Shown: positions 3,129 through 13,735 of the stretch, one piece after another
How the letters are laid out: every line of letters starts with the position of its first letter
How positions within the stretch are numbered: position 1 is the stretch's first letter
IMG/VR virus record: IMGVR_UViG_2585427748_000003
From: a virus
Taxonomy: Duplodnaviria; Heunggongvirae; Uroviricota; Caudoviricetes
Strand: one strand, 5' to 3'
DNA length: 13,854 bases
Notes under the pieces: model-generated
What the model was told of the DNA's origin: nothing
What the model saw: the letters and a program-made list of their open reading frames with translations, nothing else
The model's database searches: none
Position numbers and translations under genes: made by a program

Positions 3129-3284
3129 TTACTCCTCAGGTTCGTAAGCTGTGAAGACAGCGACCTCCGTCTGGCCGGTTCGGATTCGTACCTCGCAGAG
3201 GTCTTTCCTCGTTACCAGTGCCGTCACAATGACGGTTAAACAGATGACGATCAGGGCGATTAGCATCGCCTTTTGCTGCTTCAT
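3129..3284 (-). CDS. hok: Hok/Gef-family type I toxin (small membrane peptide, 51 aa)
   Basis: Translation MKQQKAMLIALIVICLTVIVTALVTRKDLCEVRIRTGQTEVAVFTAYEPEE has the Hok/Gef hallmark (hydrophobic helix followed by conserved ..RKxLCEVxIRxGxxEVAxFxAYE..). AAGGAG SD 9 nt upstream. An in-frame upstream ATG at 3341 gives the track's 70-aa frame; whether that is a mok-like reading frame I cannot tell. Confidence 0.8.
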   Translation of the reverse strand: MKQQKAMLIALIVICLTVIVTALVTRKDLCEVRIRTGQTEVAVFTAYEPEE

Positions 3285-3329
3285 AGCCTGCTTCTCCTTG
3301 CCTTTCGGCACGTAAGAGGCTAACCTACG

Positions 3330-3400
3330 TGTGTAGAGCATAGATATGGCCTCAGATTAATGTTAAGCGTCTTGCCGGACGCGTAATGTTAACTGGGGCT
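3330..3400 (+). ncRNA. sok: Predicted Sok-like antisense RNA opposite the hok leader/upstream start region (approximate)
   Basis: By analogy with hok/sok loci only. Candidate plus-strand promoter TTGCCT (3298-3303), 17-bp spacer, TAACCT (3321-3326). No clear terminator found; boundaries are guesses. Confidence 0.2.
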
Positions 3401-3575
3401 TTTCTCTATCTGCCTTTTGGTGTTCATGCCTGAGACAGATAGCCTCAAGCACCCGCTGCAATTCTACTTAACTCTCCTTTTCCCGCAAACCGTTTTTATC
3501 CCCAGCGGCAAATCGAATACACCACCAGCGCCACCGCCATCGCAATTCCTACCGTTGTTAATGCTTCAGGCCAGG

Positions 3576-4928: not shown

Positions 4929-5351
4929 TCACAACAGCACCTTCTGAAAATTACCCTGATAAAACGACAATATGCGCTGCATAACTTCGCTCTTCCGGCA
5001 CTCGCGACAGATTATGTTCTGACGCCTGTCGTAGCGACGTATTTCTCCGTCAGGTAATGACCAGATAAGGTCCGGATCAACCGCAGATGGTTTCTTCAGC
5101 TTTGCCCTTGAGAGCTTTTTACGGGCATTTTGCCAGTCCTTACGCGCCTGTTCAGACGGGAATAACCCGTAACCAGAGTTGTATACATCGCCACTGGCAA
5201 CCAGCTCTCTGGCCAGAACGCTCATCAGATATCTTGTTGCCCCAGTTTTAGTTTCCAGTTGTCGTAACGTCTCGCGCCCACTCTGGCGTACGAGTTCAAC
5301 AACCTGCCCTTTAATTTTTTCCCGCTCTTCTTGTGTAAAAACTTTTGCCAC
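4929..5351 (-). CDS. Hypothetical protein (140 aa), possibly DNA-binding
   Basis: GTG start with AGGAGGG SD 4 nt upstream; basic protein with a helix-turn-helix-like stretch. Family not recognised. Confidence 0.55.
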   Translation of the reverse strand: MAKVFTQEEREKIKGQVVELVRQSGRETLRQLETKTGATRYLMSVLARELVASGDVYNSGYGLFPSEQARKDWQNARKKLSRAKLKKPSAVDPDLIWSLPDGEIRRYDRRQNIICRECRKSEVMQRILSFYQGNFQKVLL

Positions 5352-5391: not shown

Positions 5392-6354
5392 TTACCCCCT
5401 GAAGCCCGGCGGAATTTCAGTGTCCGGTTCAGAAATGTGATTCACGCAACGCTGCGCAGGCGAACGCCCCAGGCGGATAACCAGTTCATCCCATTTTTCC
5501 CGGAGTTTTGCCGGACTCATGATGTTTTTTACCCAGAACGAATCCCGCTGGAGACGCCCAAACATTTCACAAATTTGTCTGTGAGTTCTGCCATCCAGCA
5601 TCCGCATTGTGCGAACGTCATTGGCCCATGCTGTCCAGTTGGGTTCTTTCGGTCTAGTGATCTCGCCATCATCGCTGGCCGCCTGCTCGTAAAGACTCAC
5701 GATTCGTCCCCAGATCCACTGTGCGCACACCAAATCTTCCTGACTTCCCCACTGGCGTTTTTTCGCACTGAACACAACCGCGTCAGGGTGTCGGGTTAAA
5801 AAATCCTGTTCAGCCGTCTGCGGGTCCGGTTGCGAAGCGTCCGGACAAGAAGATCTTTTATCTGACGGATCAGGTTTTAATACTGACGGATCGGGGTTAA
5901 TCATCGCCCCCCTAATCGGCAGTTTTTTATCAACAGTTGATCCATCAAAATTTGACGGGTCAACCGTTGAGGGGTCAATATTTGACGGGTCAACTGTTAA
6001 CGGGTCATTTTTTGCCGGGCTAATTTTTCTTTTCGGTTTATATGACTCACGCGCCGCCGCCGCAGCTGCTTCGAGTTTTTCCACATTAAGCCGATAGATA
6101 TTGCTTACATTACGCCCACCGACCTTACGCTCTTCCTTCGTCAGCCAGCCCTCTTTCGCCAGTTCTGCAATAGCCGATTTCACTGTGGATTCACTTCTTG
6201 CACCGATCTGACGCCGGATAGTTTCAATGGCAGGCCATGACACGCCCTCGTCATTGCTGTAGTCTGCAAGACGGGCCATAACCGCCACCCTGGATAAGAT
6301 CATGCCGGTGAAGGCGCACCCTTCCCAGACAAGACCATGAAGCTTGCTGCTCAT
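5392..6354 (-). CDS. Putative replication initiation / replisome-organiser protein (N-terminal HTH domain, repeat linker, C-terminal domain)
   Basis: Position directly after the ydaS/ydaT-like genes in the rightward-equivalent operon; N-terminus resembles initiator-type HTH domains; linker made of pentapeptide repeats (TVDPS/NIDPS) encoded by iteron-like DNA repeats. Start placed at ATG 6354 (GGGGG SD) rather than the track's GTG at 6369. Function inferred from architecture and synteny. Confidence 0.55.
   Translation of the reverse strand: MSSKLHGLVWEGCAFTGMILSRVAVMARLADYSNDEGVSWPAIETIRRQIGARSESTVKSAIAELAKEGWLTKEERKVGGRNVSNIYRLNVEKLEAAAAAARESYKPKRKISPAKNDPLTVDPSNIDPSTVDPSNFDGSTVDKKLPIRGAMINPDPSVLKPDPSDKRSSCPDASQPDPQTAEQDFLTRHPDAVVFSAKKRQWGSQEDLVCAQWIWGRIVSLYEQAASDDGEITRPKEPNWTAWANDVRTMRMLDGRTHRQICEMFGRLQRDSFWVKNIMSPAKLREKWDELVIRLGRSPAQRCVNHISEPDTEIPPGFRG
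5953..6012. repeat. Four tandem 15-bp iteron-like repeats (TGACGGGTCAA-type, each an imperfect palindrome) inside the replication gene; two related copies at 5863-5872 and 5884-5893
   Basis: Units begin at 5953, 5968, 5983 and 5998 with exact 15-bp periodicity; an AT-rich stretch (about 5921-5952) lies immediately downstream in the gene's transcription direction. Confidence 0.55.
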
Positions 6355-6376
6355 AAAACCCCCGAACACCGTGCTT

Positions 6377-6802
6377 TTAGTGCATCACCACAGCATTCCC
6401 TGCCGGGCCGCCGCGATTCATCTGGTCATACAAAACAACCGCTGACGCAACAAAATCATCGACATCCTTCCCCAGCCGATCCCTCCGTTCGACGATCTCA
6501 CGGTAATATTCAGAACTGTGGCTGCGCATACGGGCCACCAGCAAAGGCGGCATCGCCTTTTCGATCGCCGGTAACAGAGCCTGCATTTTTTCAACAGCAT
6601 CAGGGGTGTCTTTATCCAGCCAACGGAAAATTTTCTGGGTATTACGGGCCAGGGCTTCCGGATGGCTGTCGTCGTACAGTTCAGGGAACGTCATCCCCAG
6701 TTCGAAATAAGTCCGGGCTATTTCAGCTGCAGGAACTTTCTCACCATCAGGGTATGCCCAGGCATTCATCGCCATGCGGATGTGCTCATGTTTGATTTTC
6801 AT
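6377..6802 (-). CDS. ydaT: YdaT-like protein (Rac-type prophage, toxic partner of YdaS under RacR control)
   Basis: 141-aa ORF starting MKIKHEHI..; start overlaps the 3' end of the ydaS-like gene by 17 nt; synteny with racR/ydaS. Assignment from remembered similarity to K-12 Rac, not a search. Confidence 0.65.
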   Translation of the reverse strand: MKIKHEHIRMAMNAWAYPDGEKVPAAEIARTYFELGMTFPELYDDSHPEALARNTQKIFRWLDKDTPDAVEKMQALLPAIEKAMPPLLVARMRSHSSEYYREIVERRDRLGKDVDDFVASAVVLYDQMNRGGPAGNAVVMH

Positions 6803-9076: not shown

Positions 9077-9328
9077 CGCTGCAACGCCCTCTGTTATCAA
9101 TTTTCTGGTGACGTTTGGCGGTATCAGTTTTACTCCGTGACTGCTCTGCCGCCCTTTTTAAAGTGAATTTTGTGATGTGGTGAATGCGGCTGAGCGCACG
9201 CGGAACAGTTAAAACCAAAAACAGTGTTATGGGTGGATTCTCTGTATCCGGCGTTAATTGTTAACTGGTTAACGTCACCTGGAGGCACCAGGCACCGCAT
9301 CACAAAATTCATTGTTGAGGACGCGATA

Positions 9329-9797: not shown

Positions 9798-12212
9798 ATG
9801 AGTAAAGTCTTTATTTGCGCCGCCATTCCGGACGAACAGGCAATAAAGGAAGAAGGTGCCGTCGCTGTAGCCACTGCCATTGAAGCCGGTGATGAACGTC
9901 GCGCCCGCGCAAAATTTCACTGGCAATTCCTGGAACATTATCCGGCTGCTCAGGACTGCGCTTATAAATTTCTTGTCTGCGAGGATAAACCCGGTATACC
10001 CCGCCCTGCCCTCGATTCCTGGGATGCTGAATATATGCAGGAAAACCGCTGGGATGAGGAGTCTGCTTCCTTTGTCCCGGTTGAGACTGAATCCGATCCG
10101 ATGAACGTCACTTTTGACAAGCTGGCCCCTGAAGTACAGAACGCTGTCATGGTTAAGTTCGACACATGTGAAAACATCACCGTTGATATGGTTATTAGCG
10201 CACAGGAATTGTTGCAGGAAGACATGGCAACATTCGACGGACATATCGTTGAAGCGTTGATGAAAATGCCAGATGTTAACGCCATGTATCCGGAGCTTAA
10301 GCTGCATGCCATCGGGTGGGTTAAGCATAAATGTAAGCCTGGTGCCAAATGGCCCGAAATTCAGGCAGAGATGCGCATCTGGAAAAAACGTCGCGAAGGT
10401 GAACGCAAGGAAACCGGAAAATACACGTCTGTTGTTGATCTCGCCCGCGCCAGAGTCAATCAACAGCACACTGAAAATTCAACAGGAAAAATCAGCCTGG
10501 TCATTGCTGCCATTCATCGCGAATACAAGCAGACATGGAAAACACTGGATGACGAACTGGCCTACGCTCTCTGGCCTGGTGATGTGGATGCCGGAAACAT
10601 TGACGGCAGCATCCATCGCTGGGCAAAAAATGAAGTTATCGACAACGACCGCGAAGACTGGAAGCGTATCTCGGCATCAATGCGCAAACAGCCTGATGCC
10701 CTTCGCTACGACCGCCAGACTATTTTTGGCCTTGTCCGTGAACGTCCGATCGACATTCACAAAGACCCTGTGGCACTGAACAAATACATTACTGAATACC
10801 TGACTACAAAGGGCGTGTTTGAAGATGAAGGAAGAAATCAGAGCGCAACTGATACTCTCTCGTCGCCAGTACCAGAAACTGATGCAGTGGAAACGGCAAT
10901 TCCGGACAACGAAAAAACCGAATGCAAAGTGGAAGTCGAACCATCTGTAGAGCGTGAGGGGCCGTTCTACTTCCTCTTCACCGACAAGGATGGCGAAAAA
11001 TACGGTCGCGCAAACAAACTTTCTGGTCTGGATAAGGCACTGGCTGCCGGGGCTACTGAAATCACGAAAGAAGAATATTTCGCCCACAAAAACGGTACAT
11101 ACTCAGGTTCACAACAAAATACTGGTGCATCTGACACGACCGCACAACCAGGGCCGGTAAAAGTTACCGCTGACGAAGTAAACAAAATTATGCAGGCAGC
11201 CAATATCAGCCAGCCTGACGCCGATAAGTTGCTTGCTGCCTCTCGCGGAGAATTTGTTGCAGGGATTAGCGACCCGAATGATCCGAAATGGGTTAAGGGG
11301 ATCCAGACCCGCGATTCTGTAAACCAGAACCAGCATGAATCGGAACGGAACTACCAAAAAGCGGAACAAAACAGCCCAAATGCGTTACAAAACGAGCCAG
11401 AAACGAAACAGCCTGAACCAGTGGCGCAACAGGAAGTGGAAAAAGTCTGCACCGCCTGCGGTCAGACCGGCGGCGGCAATTGCCCTGATTGTGGCGCGGT
11501 GATGGGCGACGCAACATACCAGGAAACATTCGATGAAGAGTATCAGGTTGAAGTTCAGGAAGATGATCCGGAGGAAATGGAAGGCGCTGAACATCCACAC
11601 AAGGAGAACACTGGCGGCAATCAGCATCACGATAGCGATAATGAAACTGGCGAGACGGCAAATCACTCAATTAAGGTGAACAGTCATCACGTAATCACAT
11701 CCACCAGCAGGACGTGTGACCATCTAATGATAGACCTTGAAACCATGGGAAAAAATCCTGATGCCCCGATCATCTCAATAGGTGCAATATTTTTCGATCC
11801 GCAAACCGGAGATATGGGACCGGAATTTAGTAAGACTATCGATCTGGAAACTGCTGGCGGAGTCATTGATCGGGACACCATTAAATGGTGGCTTAAGCAA
11901 TCACGCGAAGCGCAATCTGCCATTATGACCGATGAAATCCCGTTAGATGATGCACTGTTACAATTGCGGGAATTTATCGACGAAAACTCCGGTGAATTTT
12001 TTGTTCAGGTCTGGGGAAATGGAGCCAACTTCGACAACACGATTTTGCGCCGTTCATACGAACGGCAGGGGATCCCCTGCCCGTGGCGTTACTACAACGA
12101 TCGCGATGTACGCACAATCGTTGAGCTGGGGAAAGCCATAGACTTCGATGCCAGAACGGCTATTCCATTCGAAGGTGAGCGCCATAATGCACTTGATGAC
12201 GCCCGTTACTAG
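9798..12212 (+). CDS. RecE/exodeoxyribonuclease VIII-like protein with a C-terminal DnaQ-like DEDDh 3'-5' exonuclease domain (about residues 644-804); ends at an in-frame TAG
   Basis: 804-aa ORF, GAGG SD 9 nt upstream, placed immediately upstream of xis-int as recE/exo is in lambdoid prophages. C-terminal motifs LMIDLETMG (Exo I), VWGNGANFDNT (Exo II), HNALDDARY (Exo III); Cys4 zinc-ribbon-like CTACGQTGGGNCPDCG in the linker. The RecE-like assignment of the N-terminal/linker region is from memory. Confidence 0.8.
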   Translation: MSKVFICAAIPDEQAIKEEGAVAVATAIEAGDERRARAKFHWQFLEHYPAAQDCAYKFLVCEDKPGIPRPALDSWDAEYMQENRWDEESASFVPVETESDPMNVTFDKLAPEVQNAVMVKFDTCENITVDMVISAQELLQEDMATFDGHIVEALMKMPDVNAMYPELKLHAIGWVKHKCKPGAKWPEIQAEMRIWKKRREGERKETGKYTSVVDLARARVNQQHTENSTGKISLVIAAIHREYKQTWKTLDDELAYALWPGDVDAGNIDGSIHRWAKNEVIDNDREDWKRISASMRKQPDALRYDRQTIFGLVRERPIDIHKDPVALNKYITEYLTTKGVFEDEGRNQSATDTLSSPVPETDAVETAIPDNEKTECKVEVEPSVEREGPFYFLFTDKDGEKYGRANKLSGLDKALAAGATEITKEEYFAHKNGTYSGSQQNTGASDTTAQPGPVKVTADEVNKIMQAANISQPDADKLLAASRGEFVAGISDPNDPKWVKGIQTRDSVNQNQHESERNYQKAEQNSPNALQNEPETKQPEPVAQQEVEKVCTACGQTGGGNCPDCGAVMGDATYQETFDEEYQVEVQEDDPEEMEGAEHPHKENTGGNQHHDSDNETGETANHSIKVNSHHVITSTSRTCDHLMIDLETMGKNPDAPIISIGAIFFDPQTGDMGPEFSKTIDLETAGGVIDRDTIKWWLKQSREAQSAIMTDEIPLDDALLQLREFIDENSGEFFVQVWGNGANFDNTILRRSYERQGIPCPWRYYNDRDVRTIVELGKAIDFDARTAIPFEGERHNALDDARY

Positions 12213-12333: not shown

Positions 12334-12582
12334 ATGGCAAGACTTATTCTGCTCACTGAGTGGGCAAAAGAGGAATTCAGTGAACCGGTCCCTACTCCGG
12401 GCACGTTAAGTAAATACGCTAAAGCCGGAATGATATTTCCTCTCCCCAAAAAAGTTGGAAGACGCTGGCGAGTGGATCCGCAAGCTCGCTTTGTCGGAAT
12501 GGTAAACAAGCCGGAGGTGATCGCCACAGATCACCCTGCTTTGAAGAGGATACTGGAAGATGGCGCGCCCGCGAAAATATAA
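12334..12582 (+). CDS. xis: Excisionase-like protein (lambdoid prophage Xis family)
   Basis: 82-aa basic protein directly upstream of int, overlapping it by 23 bp, as is usual for xis-int pairs; no convincing SD. Confidence 0.6.
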   Translation: MARLILLTEWAKEEFSEPVPTPGTLSKYAKAGMIFPLPKKVGRRWRVDPQARFVGMVNKPEVIATDHPALKRILEDGAPAKI

Positions 12583-13690
12583 AACCGATGTTCCGGGATT
12601 ATCTCCGTATTTTGACAAAAGAAATAACAAAGTTTACTGGCGTTACAGGCATCCCATAACAGGCAAAAATCACGGTCTCGGCAGTATTGACCAGAAACTG
12701 GCGGAAACCATTGCAGCAGAAGCGAACAGCCGTCTTGCCAGACAACAAATGGAGCAAATGCTCAGTCTGCAGGAGAAAATTATTAATGATACCGGCGGTT
12801 CATCAACCGTTTCCATTTTTCTGAATAATTACAGAAAAATTCAACAGGAAAGATATGAAAACGGAGAAATCAAACTCAACACGCTGAAACAGAAAGCGGC
12901 CCCTCTCAGGGTTTTTGATGAACGTTTTGGCACCAGACCGTTAGATGCCATAACCGTAAAGGATGTGGTATCGGTGCTGGAAGAGTACAAGTCCAGAGGA
13001 CATAACAGAATGGGACAAATTTTCAGGAAGGTACTGATCGATGTTTTCCGGGAGGCTCAGCAAACGGGCGATGCCCCGCCAGGCTTTAATCCTGCAGAAT
13101 CGGCAAAAAAACCACAGGTGCGGATATCAAGACAGCGACTGACTTTTGATGAGTGGACGATGATTTATAACGCAGCGGAAAAGGATGGTTACTTTTTACA
13201 GCGCGGTATGCTGCTGGCACTGATGACAGGCCAGCGCCTTTCAGATATTTGCAAAATGCAATTTTCGGATATCCGGGATGGTTATCTTCATGTCGAACAG
13301 CAAAAAACAGGAACCCGGATTGCCATCCCTCTGGCTCTGCGTTGCGATAAATTAAATCTCACCCTGGATGATGTGGTGTCATCCTGTCGCGATTGCGTTC
13401 TTAGTCCGTGGCTATTGCACCATCATCACGCGAAAGGGACAGCTAAGCGCGGCGGGATGGTTAAGCCAGCAACGTTAACCGTTGCATTTAAAAAAGCGCG
13501 GGATTCTGTGGATTACAACTGGCGTGCTAATGGCACCCCACCCTCTTTCCATGAGCAGAGATCTTTATCAGAGCGATTGTTCAGAGAGCAGGGAATTGAT
13601 ACCCAAATTTTGCTGGGTCATTCGAATCAAAAAATGACCGATATTTACAACGATGCACGCGGCAAGGAGTGGAAAAAACTGGTCATTTGA
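12560..13690 (+). CDS. int: Lambda-family tyrosine integrase
   Basis: 376-aa ORF with lambda Int-like architecture and catalytic-region blocks (..LALMTGQRLSDICKMQFSDIRDGYLHVEQQKTGTRIAIP.., ..PPSFHEQRSLSERLF.., ..LLGHSNQKMTDIYNDARGKEWKKLVI); GAGGA SD. Confidence 0.9.
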   Translation: MARPRKYKTDVPGLSPYFDKRNNKVYWRYRHPITGKNHGLGSIDQKLAETIAAEANSRLARQQMEQMLSLQEKIINDTGGSSTVSIFLNNYRKIQQERYENGEIKLNTLKQKAAPLRVFDERFGTRPLDAITVKDVVSVLEEYKSRGHNRMGQIFRKVLIDVFREAQQTGDAPPGFNPAESAKKPQVRISRQRLTFDEWTMIYNAAEKDGYFLQRGMLLALMTGQRLSDICKMQFSDIRDGYLHVEQQKTGTRIAIPLALRCDKLNLTLDDVVSSCRDCVLSPWLLHHHHAKGTAKRGGMVKPATLTVAFKKARDSVDYNWRANGTPPSFHEQRSLSERLFREQGIDTQILLGHSNQKMTDIYNDARGKEWKKLVI

Positions 13691-13696
13691 TGACCA

Positions 13697-13731
13697 GTTT
13701 TGCAGAGGAGTTTTGCAGAGATTTTGCAGAG
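13697..13731. repeat. Three tandem copies of a 10-bp core TTTTGCAGAG between the int stop and the ompW stop; candidate Int arm-type or accessory binding sites
   Basis: Cores at 13698-13707, 13711-13720 and 13722-13731 (periods 13 and 11 bp). Confidence 0.55.
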
Positions 13732-13735
13732 AAAA

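What the first reader, a model, noticed from the sequence alone, without database searches (positions are those of the whole stretch)
5863..6012. Iteron-like 15-bp tandem repeats inside the replication gene: putative origin embedded in coding sequence
Four exact-period 15-bp units (TGACGGGTCAACCGT, TGAGGGGTCAATATT, TGACGGGTCAACTGT, TAACGGGTCATTTTT), each an imperfect palindrome, plus two related copies at 5863 and 5884, lie in the linker of the putative initiator where they encode pentapeptide repeats, and are followed by an AT-rich segment. This mirrors the lambda arrangement in which ori iterons sit inside the O gene.
Basis: partly seen in the sequence, partly recalled or inferred. Interest (0 to 1): 0.55.

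Follow-up and report, generated by a model that had tools for sequence, protein, structure and literature searches.

The report
Prophage replication origin inside initiator gene
The 15-bp repeats are very probably the binding sites of a prophage replication origin sitting inside the phage's own initiator gene, as in phage lambda, but built with a different DNA-binding domain, tighter repeat spacing and no phage helicase loader.

Summary
The repeats are real: five full 15-bp units plus one partial (5926-6015) and two accessory copies (5862-5871, 5883-5892). None of 200-300 shuffles matched them. They lie in a minus-strand gene (5392-6354, 320 aa) of a Qin-like lambdoid E. coli prophage beside ompW. 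The protein has a winged-helix N-domain (Pfam HTH_36, not lambda's Phage_rep_O), a disordered linker, a C-domain 39% identical to lambda O's, and a tail nearly identical to host DnaT's C-terminus. The repeats fill the linker's coding sequence, at the same gene position as the lambda and phi80 iterons.

About 80 relatives across Enterobacterales carry a 15-bp array (core TCA-N5-TGA) at this spot. The repeat subtype follows the N-domain subtype, not the C-domain. Wobble bases inside the repeats stay fixed while the encoded amino acids change. The mosaic junction falls just after the accessory repeats.

One detail needs correcting. The AT-rich element conserved across the family lies on the other side of the array (about 5845-5900) and contains conserved GATC sites.

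Verdict: a new variant of a known kind, of moderate interest. The DnaT-like tail may be the more novel lead.

The parts
5392..6354 (-). Replication initiator gene (320 aa; RefSeq WP_000095671.1, annotated only as 'helix-turn-helix domain-containing protein')
   Evidence: ORF and translation. PHROG 391 'replication initiation O-like', E 4e-115. PGAP annotation of a copy whose 5700-6400 stretch is 99.9% identical. It sits downstream of the cro-like and YdaT-like genes of the early right operon.
6043..6354 (-). N-terminal winged-helix DNA-binding domain (aa 1-104), the presumed iteron reader
   Evidence: Pfam HTH_36 over aa 30-76. The AlphaFold2 model shows four helices plus a beta-hairpin wing, pLDDT 75-89. 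Foldseek matches MarR/ArsR/PadR-type winged helices. The residues that separate the two classes lie in the recognition helix and the wing.
6004..6043 (.).
   Evidence: GC 0.40 with AT skew -0.67. It is among the lowest-GC 36-nt windows of the gene. It is present in class A relatives but absent from class B genes.
5926..6015 (.). Iteron array: one partial and five full 15-bp units, (T/C)CAA-NNN-TTGA-SSSS on the coding strand; core TCA-N5-TGA
   Evidence: Homologues carry 15-bp arrays at the same gene position. Wobble bases are invariant while the amino acids vary.
5883..5892 (.). Accessory repeat 1 (CTGACGGATC; coding strand GATCCGTCAG), contains a GATC Dam site
   Evidence: It is conserved in both iteron classes.
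5862..5871 (.). Accessory repeat 2 (CTGACGGATC), contains a GATC Dam site
   Evidence: Its Asp codon is GAT, creating GATC, in 65 of 69 homologues, whereas the array units use GAC in 75% of cases.
5845..5900 (.). AT-rich stretch around the accessory repeats; candidate DNA-unwinding element in the lambda-like position (between the iterons and the C-domain coding sequence)
   Evidence: In 66 of 78 homologous genes the lowest-GC 36-nt window of the whole gene falls within about 20 nt of the last accessory repeat. The mean minimum GC is 0.27 against a gene mean of 0.52. In the window itself this stretch is about 32% GC (my own count).
5830..5861 (.). Module junction (ATAAAAGATCTTCTTGTCCGGA on the coding strand), where similarity to genes with a different N-domain and iteron set begins
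   Evidence: DNA alignment with mEp460_ev081 and the end points of the megablast matches. The sequence resembles the right edge of the lambda and phi80 origins, where the lambda record marks recombination sites.
5455..5811 (-). C-terminal helical domain (aa 182-300), homologous to the lambda O and phi80 gp15 C-domains
   Evidence: BLASTP gives 39% identity, E 6e-26 to lambda O aa 171-277 and 36%, E 4e-26 to phi80 gp15. The model is helical with pLDDT about 70-85.
5395..5457 (-). Disordered C-terminal tail AQRCVNHISEPDTEIPPGFRG, nearly identical to the last 21 residues of E. coli DnaT
   Evidence: phmmer against PDB sequences hits DnaT chains 2ru8, 6aep and 9zbt_D at E 2.5e-4 to 5.7e-4, aligned to DnaT 159-179. 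NCBIfam DnaT model positions 159-179. pLDDT is below 50.
4929..5351 (-). Downstream gene (DUF977) in the position where lambda has P; no helicase loader is encoded here
   Evidence: Pfam DUF977, E 1.5e-31; annotation.

Best explanation
Window 5830-6045 is most likely the replication origin (ori) of a Qin-like lambdoid prophage. It lies inside the coding sequence for the disordered linker of the phage's own initiator.

Proposed mechanism:
1. After induction the initiator is made from the early right operon. This is inferred from the gene order; transcription was not measured.
2. Dimers of its N-terminal winged-helix domain bind the five to six contiguous 15-bp units (core TCA-N5-TGA). They probably also bind the two GATCCGTCAG accessory sites. 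This would form a compact nucleoprotein array comparable to lambda's O-some.
3. That complex destabilises an adjacent AT-rich stretch. The best candidate is the family-conserved one around the accessory repeats (about 5845-5900). The A-rich tract at 6004-6043 is the alternative.
4. The lambda-O-type C-domain and the DnaT-like tail then bring in the host DnaB helicase machinery. No lambda-P-like loader is encoded, so this may go through host DnaC.
5. The conserved GATC sites suggest that Dam methylation or SeqA modulates firing.

Shown here: the repeats, their conservation, the DNA-level constraint, the link between repeat type and N-domain type, the domain architecture, and the homology to lambda O. 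Inferred: binding, unwinding, helicase recruitment and origin activity.
For: - **Gene identity and position.** PHROG 391 'replication initiation O-like', E 4e-115. The gene lies in the cro / YdaT / initiator order of a lambdoid prophage. Its C-domain is homologous to lambda O and phi80 gp15. The array lies at gene nt 355-429, against annotated iterons at nt 349-433 in lambda O and nt 365-441 in phi80 gene 15.
- **Structure.** The repeats map to a disordered linker (aa 112-179, pLDDT below 50) between a winged-helix domain and a helical domain.
- **Conservation.** Apart from two E. coli genes (L082/L085) whose N-domain match stops at residue 79, every full-length gene among 80 genome loci from many Enterobacterales genera has a 15- or 30-bp periodic array right after the N-domain. 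This holds whichever of several unrelated C-terminal domains follows.
- **Covariation.**
  - The window-type N-domain (MSSKLHGLVWEG) goes with (T/C)CAA-NNN-TTGA-SSSS units.
  - The YVWDG/A type goes with TCAAAATCTGAC-NNN units.
  - A divergent N-domain (L170) goes with TCARAATTTGAR units.
  - A non-homologous N-domain joined to the same C-domain (mEp460_ev081) goes with unrelated 23-bp repeats.
  - The residues that separate the classes sit in the recognition helix and the wing.
- **DNA-level selection, class B.** In units chosen by peptide only (SKSD, n=112), Ser1 is TCA in 110 of 112, Lys is AAA in 112 of 112, and Ser3 is TCT in 97 of 112. Third positions of the N-domain are only 50% identical between the same genes.
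- **DNA-level selection, class A.** Codon 1 encodes S, P, L or A, yet its wobble base is A in 60 of 60 units. Codon 3 encodes I, V, N or F, yet its wobble base is T in 60 of 60. The spacer flips between CCCC and GGGG, which are reverse-complement equivalents in TTGA-N4-TCAA but change the peptide from Asp-Pro to Glu-Gly.
- **Module boundary.** Similarity to genes with another N-domain and repeat set begins directly after the second accessory repeat.
- **No competitor.** This is the only substantial repeat array in the 13.9-kb window.
- **AT-rich element.** The lowest-GC stretch of the gene lies on the accessory repeats in 66 of 78 homologues.
- **Sole replication gene.** A complete 44-kb lambdoid phage recorded as a circular molecule has an initiator of this type as its only recognisable replication gene.
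Against: - There is no experimental evidence for binding, unwinding or origin firing for this family. I found no paper containing these repeat sequences in the searchable library.
- AT-richness in the window itself is modest and spread over three places: 5921-5956, 6008-6043 and about 5847-5882. The unwinding site is therefore not pinned down.
- A 15-bp period puts neighbouring sites on nearly opposite faces of the helix, unlike lambda's roughly two-turn spacing. An O-some-like wrapped structure is thus an analogy, not a given.
- Some E. coli homologues have lost most or all array units (P0103, P0106, P0107). The protein can therefore persist without the array, though these may be decaying prophages.
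- Unit selection used a consensus, which inflates apparent conservation. avoids this for class B only.
Confidence: 0.8

Rival explanations
1. The repeats are only a low-complexity coding feature. A slippage-generated pentapeptide linker (D-P-S-x-V-like) would be selected, if at all, for protein flexibility, with no role for the DNA sequence.
For: The repeats encode a predicted disordered linker. Copy number varies in-frame between relatives, from 0 to about 11 units, as expected for slippage-prone coding repeats.
Against: Wobble positions are fixed across genera while the amino acids change. The spacer switches between CCCC and GGGG, which keeps the DNA palindrome but changes the peptide. The repeat type follows the DNA-binding domain type, not the rest of the protein. 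The position matches the lambda and phi80 iterons.
Confidence: 0.04
2. The repeats are genuine binding sites for the initiator's N-domain, but they serve autoregulation, copy-number control or a transcriptional roadblock. Replication would start elsewhere in the prophage.
For: The same covariation and DNA-level conservation would be expected for any self-binding site. Iterons in plasmids also act in negative control (my own knowledge). AT-richness next to the array in the window is weak.
Against: No other repeat array or obvious origin-like element exists in the window, although the window is only part of the prophage. The architecture matches the experimentally defined lambda and phi80 origins in gene position and in the module junction. 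A conserved lowest-GC element adjoins the sites in 66 of 78 genes.
Confidence: 0.1
3. The repeats are recognised mainly by another factor, such as a host protein (DnaA, SeqA at the GATC sites) or another phage protein. Alternatively they act through DNA secondary structure (cruciform or hairpin) rather than by initiator binding.
For: The array is one long imperfect palindrome, and as single-stranded DNA it folds far better than shuffles (z -4.7, 0 of 200). GATC sites are enriched in the linker region (10.6 per kb against 2.7 per kb). One perfect DnaA-box match lies at 6077-6085 and a one-mismatch match at 5927-5935.
Against: DnaA-box-like matches are scattered across the whole window with no cluster here. 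The hairpin potential follows automatically from alternating inverted half-sites.
Confidence: 0.05

Closest known systems
Phage lambda ori-lambda inside gene O (also Stx phages 933W and P27)
   Same: - The origin lies in the middle of the initiator gene, between the sequences coding for an N-terminal DNA-binding domain and a C-terminal domain.
- It has an array of at least four palindromic initiator sites plus an adjacent AT-rich stretch (PMC7466680).
- The C-domain is homologous (39% identity).
- Array size varies in-frame between relatives, giving extra iterons and extra residues (PMC7466680).
- The module junction is at the same place.
   Different: - The N-domain is Pfam HTH_36, not Phage_rep_O.
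- The units are 15 bp and contiguous, against 18-19-bp iterons spaced 20-24 bp apart.
- The core is TCA-N5-TGA, not TCCCTC-N-GAGGGA.
- No P gene follows; the next gene is DUF977.
- There is a DnaT-like C-terminal tail that lambda O lacks.
- AT-richness is weaker.
- Two GATC-bearing accessory repeats are present.
Phage phi80 gene 15 origin (four annotated gp15-binding sites)
   Same: The sites lie inside the initiator gene at nt 365-441. The C-domain is homologous (36% identity, E 4e-26). The sequence at the right edge of the origin is similar: AAAAGATCTTCGTCCGAG in phi80 against AAAAGATCTTCTTGTCCGGA here.
   Different: phi80 gp15 has a Phage_rep_O N-domain. Its sites are spaced 20-21 bp apart and have an unrelated sequence. 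A P-like gene 14 follows.
SfII / SfIV / mEp460-group / Klebsiella lambdoid phages annotated 'O family' or 'primosomal protein I' (PHROG 391)
   Same: These belong to the same initiator family (56-62% identity). They have 15-bp arrays at the same gene position, the same accessory GATCCGTCAG pair, a GFR(G/S/T) tail, and no loader gene downstream.
   Different: Their iterons are the class B unit TCAAAATCTGAC-NNN rather than (T/C)CAA-NNN-TTGA-SSSS. They lack the upstream A-rich insertion. None of the six records I inspected annotates an origin or repeats.
Bacillus phage SPP1 replisome organiser G38P with oriL inside gene 38; DnaD-like replisome organisers (my own knowledge; PHROG and Pfam hints)
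   Same: An initiator with an N-terminal winged helix binds repeated boxes located within its own coding sequence. There are weak DnaD_N and 'replisome organizer' profile matches.
   Different: The host clade differs, there is no detectable close homology, and G38P works with a dedicated loader (G39P) and helicase (G40P). I did not test this comparison beyond the profile hints.
Iteron plasmids (pSC101, R6K, RK2, P1 oriR)
   Same: Directly repeated initiator sites sit next to an AT-rich element. Winged-helix initiators bind them. P1 oriR shows GATC/Dam dependence (my own knowledge).
   Different: Plasmid iterons are about 17-22 bp, usually intergenic and spaced about two helical turns apart. 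Rep proteins have a WH1-WH2 architecture. DnaA boxes are typically essential there, but none cluster here.

Membership tests
Lambdoid 'origin inside the O gene' module | The initiator gene lies in the early right operon, downstream of cro/cII-like genes | tested here: met
   Reading along the initiator's (minus) strand, the order is the divergently transcribed cI-like repressor gene, then the cro-like gene, the YdaT-family gene, and the initiator.
Lambdoid 'origin inside the O gene' module | C-terminal domain homologous to the lambda O C-domain | tested here: met
   BLASTP gives 39% identity over 119 aa, E 6e-26 to lambda O, and 36%, E 4e-26 to phi80 gp15.
Lambdoid 'origin inside the O gene' module | N-terminal domain of the Phage_rep_O family (PF04492) | tested here: not met
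   The window protein matches HTH_36 (PF13730) only. Lambda O and phi80 gp15 match Phage_rep_O. There is no significant BLASTP similarity in the N-terminal halves.
Lambdoid 'origin inside the O gene' module | An array of at least four repeated, internally palindromic sites in the middle of the gene | tested here: met
   There are five full units plus one partial at gene nt 340-429. This matches the position of the lambda and phi80 sites.
Lambdoid 'origin inside the O gene' module | Iteron spacing of about two helical turns (20-24 bp) | tested here: not met
   The period is exactly 15 bp here and in about 80 relatives. Lambda has 20, 24 and 23 bp, and phi80 has 20-21 bp.
Lambdoid 'origin inside the O gene' module | An AT-rich unwinding region directly next to the iterons on the C-terminal side | tested here: inconclusive
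   Across the family, the lowest-GC window lies on the accessory repeats in 66 of 78 genes, with a mean GC of 0.27. In the window itself AT-richness is moderate and split over three stretches. Unwinding was not tested.
Lambdoid 'origin inside the O gene' module | A partner helicase-loader gene (lambda P type) immediately downstream | tested here: not met
   The next gene is DUF977. Relatives whose initiator ends in W(E/D)xxL do have a P homologue: 6 of the 7 loci followed by P (the seventh, L011, ends SAGVLP), plus L172.
Lambdoid 'origin inside the O gene' module | The initiator binds the repeats, and the segment supports initiator-dependent replication | not testable with these tools
   This needs EMSA or footprinting and a plasmid replication assay.
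Iteron-plasmid origins (Rep WH1-WH2 type) | Intergenic iterons of about 17-22 bp, clustered DnaA boxes, and a WH1-WH2 Rep protein | tested here: not met
   The repeats are intragenic with a 15-bp period. DnaA-box-like matches do not cluster here. The protein has a single winged helix plus a lambda-O-type C-domain.
Plain coding tandem repeat (no DNA-level function) | Synonymous sites in the repeats drift as freely as elsewhere in the gene, and the repeat sequence is independent of the DNA-binding domain type | tested here: not met
   Wobble bases are fixed in 110 of 112, 112 of 112 and 60 of 60 cases, against 50% third-position identity in the N-domain. The repeat class follows the N-domain class.

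The most novel reading that the evidence does not exclude
This module may be a self-sufficient 'initiator-only' phage replicon. A winged-helix initiator would coat a tightly packed 15-bp iteron array inside its own gene. Instead of using a phage helicase loader, it would carry a copy of the C-terminal tail of the host restart protein DnaT. With that tail it would plug directly into the host helicase-loading machinery, either DnaC-DnaB or the PriA/PriB primosome.

If so, the tail would also show what the so far unassigned C-terminal tail of DnaT does. The conserved GATC sites would tie origin firing to Dam methylation.
Probability: 0.3. Interest if true: 0.65.

Novelty: new variant of a known kind. 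Interest (0 to 1): 0.42.

Why it matters
This prophage module is very common. The 5700-6400 segment is at least 99% identical in 1363 of 5426 complete E. coli genomes, including O104:H4 and O121 strains. RefSeq nevertheless labels the gene only as 'helix-turn-helix domain-containing protein', and none of the phage records I inspected marks an origin.

Defining the origin gives three things. It provides a handle for following or blocking replication of Qin-like prophages. It offers a natural set of matched initiator and iteron specificities for studying how origin recognition evolves under the double constraint of coding and binding. It also provides a compact 15-bp array geometry to compare with the lambda O-some.

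The DnaT-like tail, which usually comes without a phage loader gene, offers a testable route to how loader-less lambdoid phages recruit DnaB. It may also point to the partner of DnaT's own tail.

Tried and rejected
- **Phased bending.** In the window the central triplets alternate AT-rich and GC-rich with a 30-bp period, which suggested phased bending. I rejected this as a general feature because Edwardsiella relatives show a 45-bp pattern (ATA, CGG, CGG).
- **DnaA boxes.** One perfect and one near match lie near the array, but similar matches are scattered across the window. This is not evidence of DnaA involvement.
- **GATC cluster within the window alone.** There are 4 sites in 91 bp, but a similar cluster exists at 11768-11868. 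It became meaningful only through family-wide conservation.
- **Literature.** I found no description of iterons for SfIV-type or Rac/YdaU-type initiators, nor of the repeat strings themselves. The Weigel and Seitz review of phage replication modules is cited by other papers but is not held in the library.
- **Role of the DnaT tail.** The 2026 preprimosome paper and two earlier papers do not assign a function to DnaT residues 159-179.
- **Fold search.** It gave only generic winged-helix regulators at weak E-values and no specific initiator relative.
- **Viral-contig scan with the N-domain.** It returned only loci whose N-domain match is 100% identical. This was useful for within-species variation but not for diversity.
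- **Natural dv-like plasmid.** The 16-kb circular record pZ1322PEC0161-2 carries the module, but the initiator gene is frameshifted there and the record may be an assembly product. I did not use it as evidence.
- **Tail against loader.** A strict rule that the DnaT tail excludes a loader gene fails, because that same record has both the tail and a DnaC-like gene.
Full report
**Context.** The window is part of a lambdoid prophage of E. coli integrated next to ompW. Window 5700-6400 is 99.9% identical to E. coli O104:H4 strain FDAARGOS_349 and at least 99% identical in 1363 of 5426 complete E. coli genomes. The annotation of that copy gives the layout:
- integrase, excisionase and exonuclease;
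- dicB, plus DicF RNA at window 9103-9154;
- a cI-like repressor gene, transcribed divergently from a cro-like gene, a YdaT-family gene and the gene under study;
- then DUF977, QueH, hokD/sok, DUF968, RusA and an antiterminator.

This makes it a Qin-like lambdoid prophage. The finding lies in its early right operon.

**The observation.**
- Tandem Repeats Finder reports period 15 (5.2 copies) and period 30 over 5930-6028. The repeat finder gives exact 15-bp spacing and a 33-nt inverted repeat centred on 5965.
- The motif TTGACGGGTCAA with up to 2 mismatches occurs 7 times, all within 5937-6008, matched by 0 of 200 shuffles. TGACGGGTCA with up to 1 mismatch occurs 5 times, all in the region, again 0 of 200.
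- The gene's best 75-nt autocorrelation is 0.82, against a maximum of 0.61 in 300 codon-shuffled genes.
- The gene is on the minus strand (5392-6354). On that strand the array reads as one partial and five full units of (T/C)CAA-NNN-TTGA-SSSS (5926-6015), encoding DPLTV DPSNI DPSTV DPSNF DGSTV.
- The two 'related copies' are CTGACGGATC at 5862-5871 and 5883-5892.

**The gene.**
- It matches PHROG 391 'replication initiation O-like' (E 4e-115).
- The only Pfam match above threshold is HTH_36 over aa 30-76.
- An AlphaFold2 model built from a 40-sequence alignment shows a winged helix (aa 1-104, pLDDT 75-89). It also shows a disordered stretch (aa 112-179, pLDDT below 50), a helical C-domain (aa 181-298) and a disordered tail (aa 299-320). 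Foldseek matches for the N-domain are generic MarR/ArsR/PadR winged helices.
- The C-domain is homologous to the C-domain of lambda O (39% identity, E 6e-26) and of phi80 gp15 (36%, E 4e-26). The N-domains are not alike: lambda O and phi80 gp15 are Pfam Phage_rep_O.
- The disordered linker (gene nt 334-537) is encoded by the A-rich tract, the array and the accessory repeats.
- The array (gene nt 355-429) lies at the same place as the annotated iterons of lambda (nt 349-433) and phi80 (nt 365-441).

**Relatives.**
- Phages with the same initiator family have 15-bp arrays at the same gene position, with the related unit TCAAAATCTGAC-NNN. They are SfII, SfIV, several E. coli and Klebsiella phages, LLS and Citrobacter phiNP, at 56-62% identity or lower.
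- A scan of one genome per species returned 80 loci from many Enterobacterales genera. Apart from two E. coli genes whose N-domain match stops at residue 79, every full-length gene has a 15- or 30-bp periodic array directly after the N-domain, whichever C-terminal domain follows.
- Repeat type follows N-domain type:
  - The window-type N-domain (MSSKLHGLVWEG; Erwinia, Mixta, Morganella, Edwardsiella, Salmonella, Citrobacter) has the window-type unit.
  - The YVWDG/A type has the class B unit.
  - A divergent N-domain has TCARAATTTGAR (L170).
  - Phage mEp460_ev081 has a non-homologous N-domain joined to a C-domain whose coding DNA is about 88% identical. It carries unrelated 23-bp repeats.
- Similarity between the window and mEp460-type genes starts at about 5856-5830, directly after the second accessory repeat. 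That stretch (ATAAAAGATCTTCTTGTCCGGA) resembles the right edge of the lambda and phi80 origins, where the lambda record marks recombination sites.
- The N-domain, array and accessory repeats are therefore inherited as one module.
- The residues that separate the two N-domain classes lie in the recognition helix (positions 53-54 and 59-60) and the wing (73, 77-83).

**Selection on the DNA rather than the peptide.**
- For class B, I chose units by peptide alone (SKSD, 112 units from about 59 genes). Ser1 is TCA in 110 of 112, Lys is AAA in 112 of 112, and Ser3 is TCT in 97 of 112. In the same genes, third positions of the N-domain are only 50% identical, and conserved serine columns use several codons.
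- For class A (60 units from 10 genes), codon 1 encodes S, P, L or A, but its wobble base is A in all 60. Codon 3 encodes I, V, N or F, but its wobble base is T in all 60.
- The 4-bp spacer is CCCC 24 times and GGGG 10 times. In the palindrome TTGA-N4-TCAA these are the same site read from either strand, yet they encode Asp-Pro and Glu-Gly.
- These patterns are not expected from a peptide constraint or from recent duplication. They are expected for a protein-binding DNA site.

**The AT-rich element and the GATC sites.**
- Across 78 homologues, the lowest-GC 36-nt window of the whole gene falls on the accessory repeats in 66 cases. The mean minimum GC is 0.27 against 0.52 for the gene.
- That is the lambda orientation: iterons, then the AT-rich stretch, then the C-domain coding sequence.
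- The accessory repeats carry GATC. The window has four GATC sites in 5852-5942.
- Family-wide, GATC density is 10.6 per kb in the linker region against 2.7 per kb elsewhere in the gene.
- The Asp codon of the last accessory repeat is GAT in 65 of 69 genes, although the array units prefer GAC.
- Many relatives encode a Dam-type methylase right after the initiator. A link to Dam or SeqA control is plausible but untested.

**How it probably works.**
- Shown: the architecture, the conservation, the covariation and the DNA-level constraint.
- Inferred:
  - dimers of the winged-helix domain occupy the contiguous 15-bp sites and probably the accessory sites;
  - the complex opens the adjacent AT-rich DNA;
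  - the C-terminal part recruits the host helicase.
- A 15-bp period places neighbouring sites about 154 degrees apart around the helix (my own arithmetic). The complex therefore cannot simply copy lambda's arrangement of sites roughly two helical turns apart. I estimate a 0.8 probability that this is the initiator-binding core of the prophage origin.

**Rivals.**
- A purely coding repeat is contradicted by the wobble and spacer data (probability 0.04).
- Self-binding sites that regulate rather than initiate cannot be excluded without an origin assay (0.1).
- Recognition by another factor or by DNA structure is less likely because the repeat class follows the N-domain class (0.05). The array does fold strongly as single-stranded DNA (z -4.7), and one perfect DnaA box lies nearby.

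**Comparison with what is known.**
- That lambdoid origins sit in the middle of gene O, as iterons plus an AT-rich tract, is textbook knowledge and is restated in PMC7466680. This case works like that and shares the C-domain.
- It fails three features of the lambda type: the N-domain family, the iteron spacing and a P-type partner.
- None of the six phage records of this family annotates an origin. RefSeq names the protein only by its helix-turn-helix. No paper in the searchable library contains the repeat strings.
- I therefore rate it a new variant of a known kind, of moderate interest.

**Side finding.**
- The last 21 residues (AQRCVNHISEPDTEIPPGFRG) are nearly identical to the C-terminal tail of E. 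coli DnaT ([21 protein letters not shown]). This explains the 'primosomal protein I' labels in phage records.
- A GFR end is kept in all seven aligned proteins, even those with a different C-domain type, and five of them end in IPxGFRG.
- Among the genome loci, the seven initiators followed by a lambda-P homologue all lack the GFR tail, and six of them end in W(E/D)xxL. The one ending in TDDDFI is followed by a DnaC/IstB-like ATPase.
- The roughly 40 loci with the GFR tail are followed by methylases, PerC, DUF977 or genes of unknown function.
- One 16-kb circular record has both the tail and a DnaC-like gene, which echoes the host dnaT-dnaC operon.
- The papers I could read do not assign a function to this part of DnaT.
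- The tail may be how these loader-less phages reach the host helicase-loading machinery.

Noticed in passing
window 5395-5457 (minus strand): The initiator's last 21 residues (AQRCVNHISEPDTEIPPGFRG) nearly copy the C-terminal tail of host DnaT (aa 159-179). Across relatives, a GFR tail usually goes with having no helicase-loader gene downstream, while relatives followed by a lambda-P homologue lack it (most end in W(E/D)xxL). One circular record has both the tail and a DnaC-like gene, like the host dnaT-dnaC operon.
   Followed up: partly
window 5852-5942; accessory repeats 5862-5871 and 5883-5892: Four GATC (Dam) sites lie within 91 bp. In homologues the GATC in the last accessory repeat is kept by synonymous codon choice (GAT in 65 of 69). 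The linker region has 10.6 GATC per kb against 2.7 elsewhere in the gene. Many relatives encode a Dam-like methylase right after the initiator.
   Followed up: partly
window 4929-5351 (minus strand): A DUF977 gene sits where lambda has P. In relatives this slot holds Dam, cytosine methylase, MT-A70, PAPS reductase, KilA-N, PerC or lambda-P genes, so it is a highly variable position.
   Followed up: partly
window 9103-9154 (+) and 3279-3454 (-): DicF antisense RNA (76.7 bits) and sok antitoxin RNA (117 bits), the latter beside hokD. With dicB and ydfD, these mark the element as a Qin-like lambdoid prophage.
   Followed up: no
window 13696-13732: Three tandem copies of about 11-13 bp (AGTTTTGCAGAG(G)) lie directly after the integrase gene (12560-13690) and close to the ompW junction. 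They may be integrase arm-type binding sites of the attachment site.
   Followed up: no
window 6077-6085 (+) and 5927-5935 (+): A perfect DnaA-box match (TTTTCCACA) lies 60 bp from the array, and a one-mismatch match (TTATCAACA) lies at its edge. Similar matches are scattered over the whole window, so the significance is doubtful.
   Followed up: no
L174 (NZ_CP148542.1, whole record) and L175 (NZ_CP084811.1): L174 is a 16-kb circular E. coli 'plasmid' made only of the immunity, replication and lysis part of such a prophage. It has the same N-domain and array but a frameshifted initiator gene. L175 is a 44-kb circular 'plasmid' that is a whole lambdoid phage with this initiator type as its only replication gene.
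   Followed up: partly
proteins P0103, P0106, P0107 (E. coli) in alignment A4: Some E. coli homologues have lost nearly all array units while keeping the accessory repeats and both domains. They may be origin-dead cryptic prophages.
   Followed up: no
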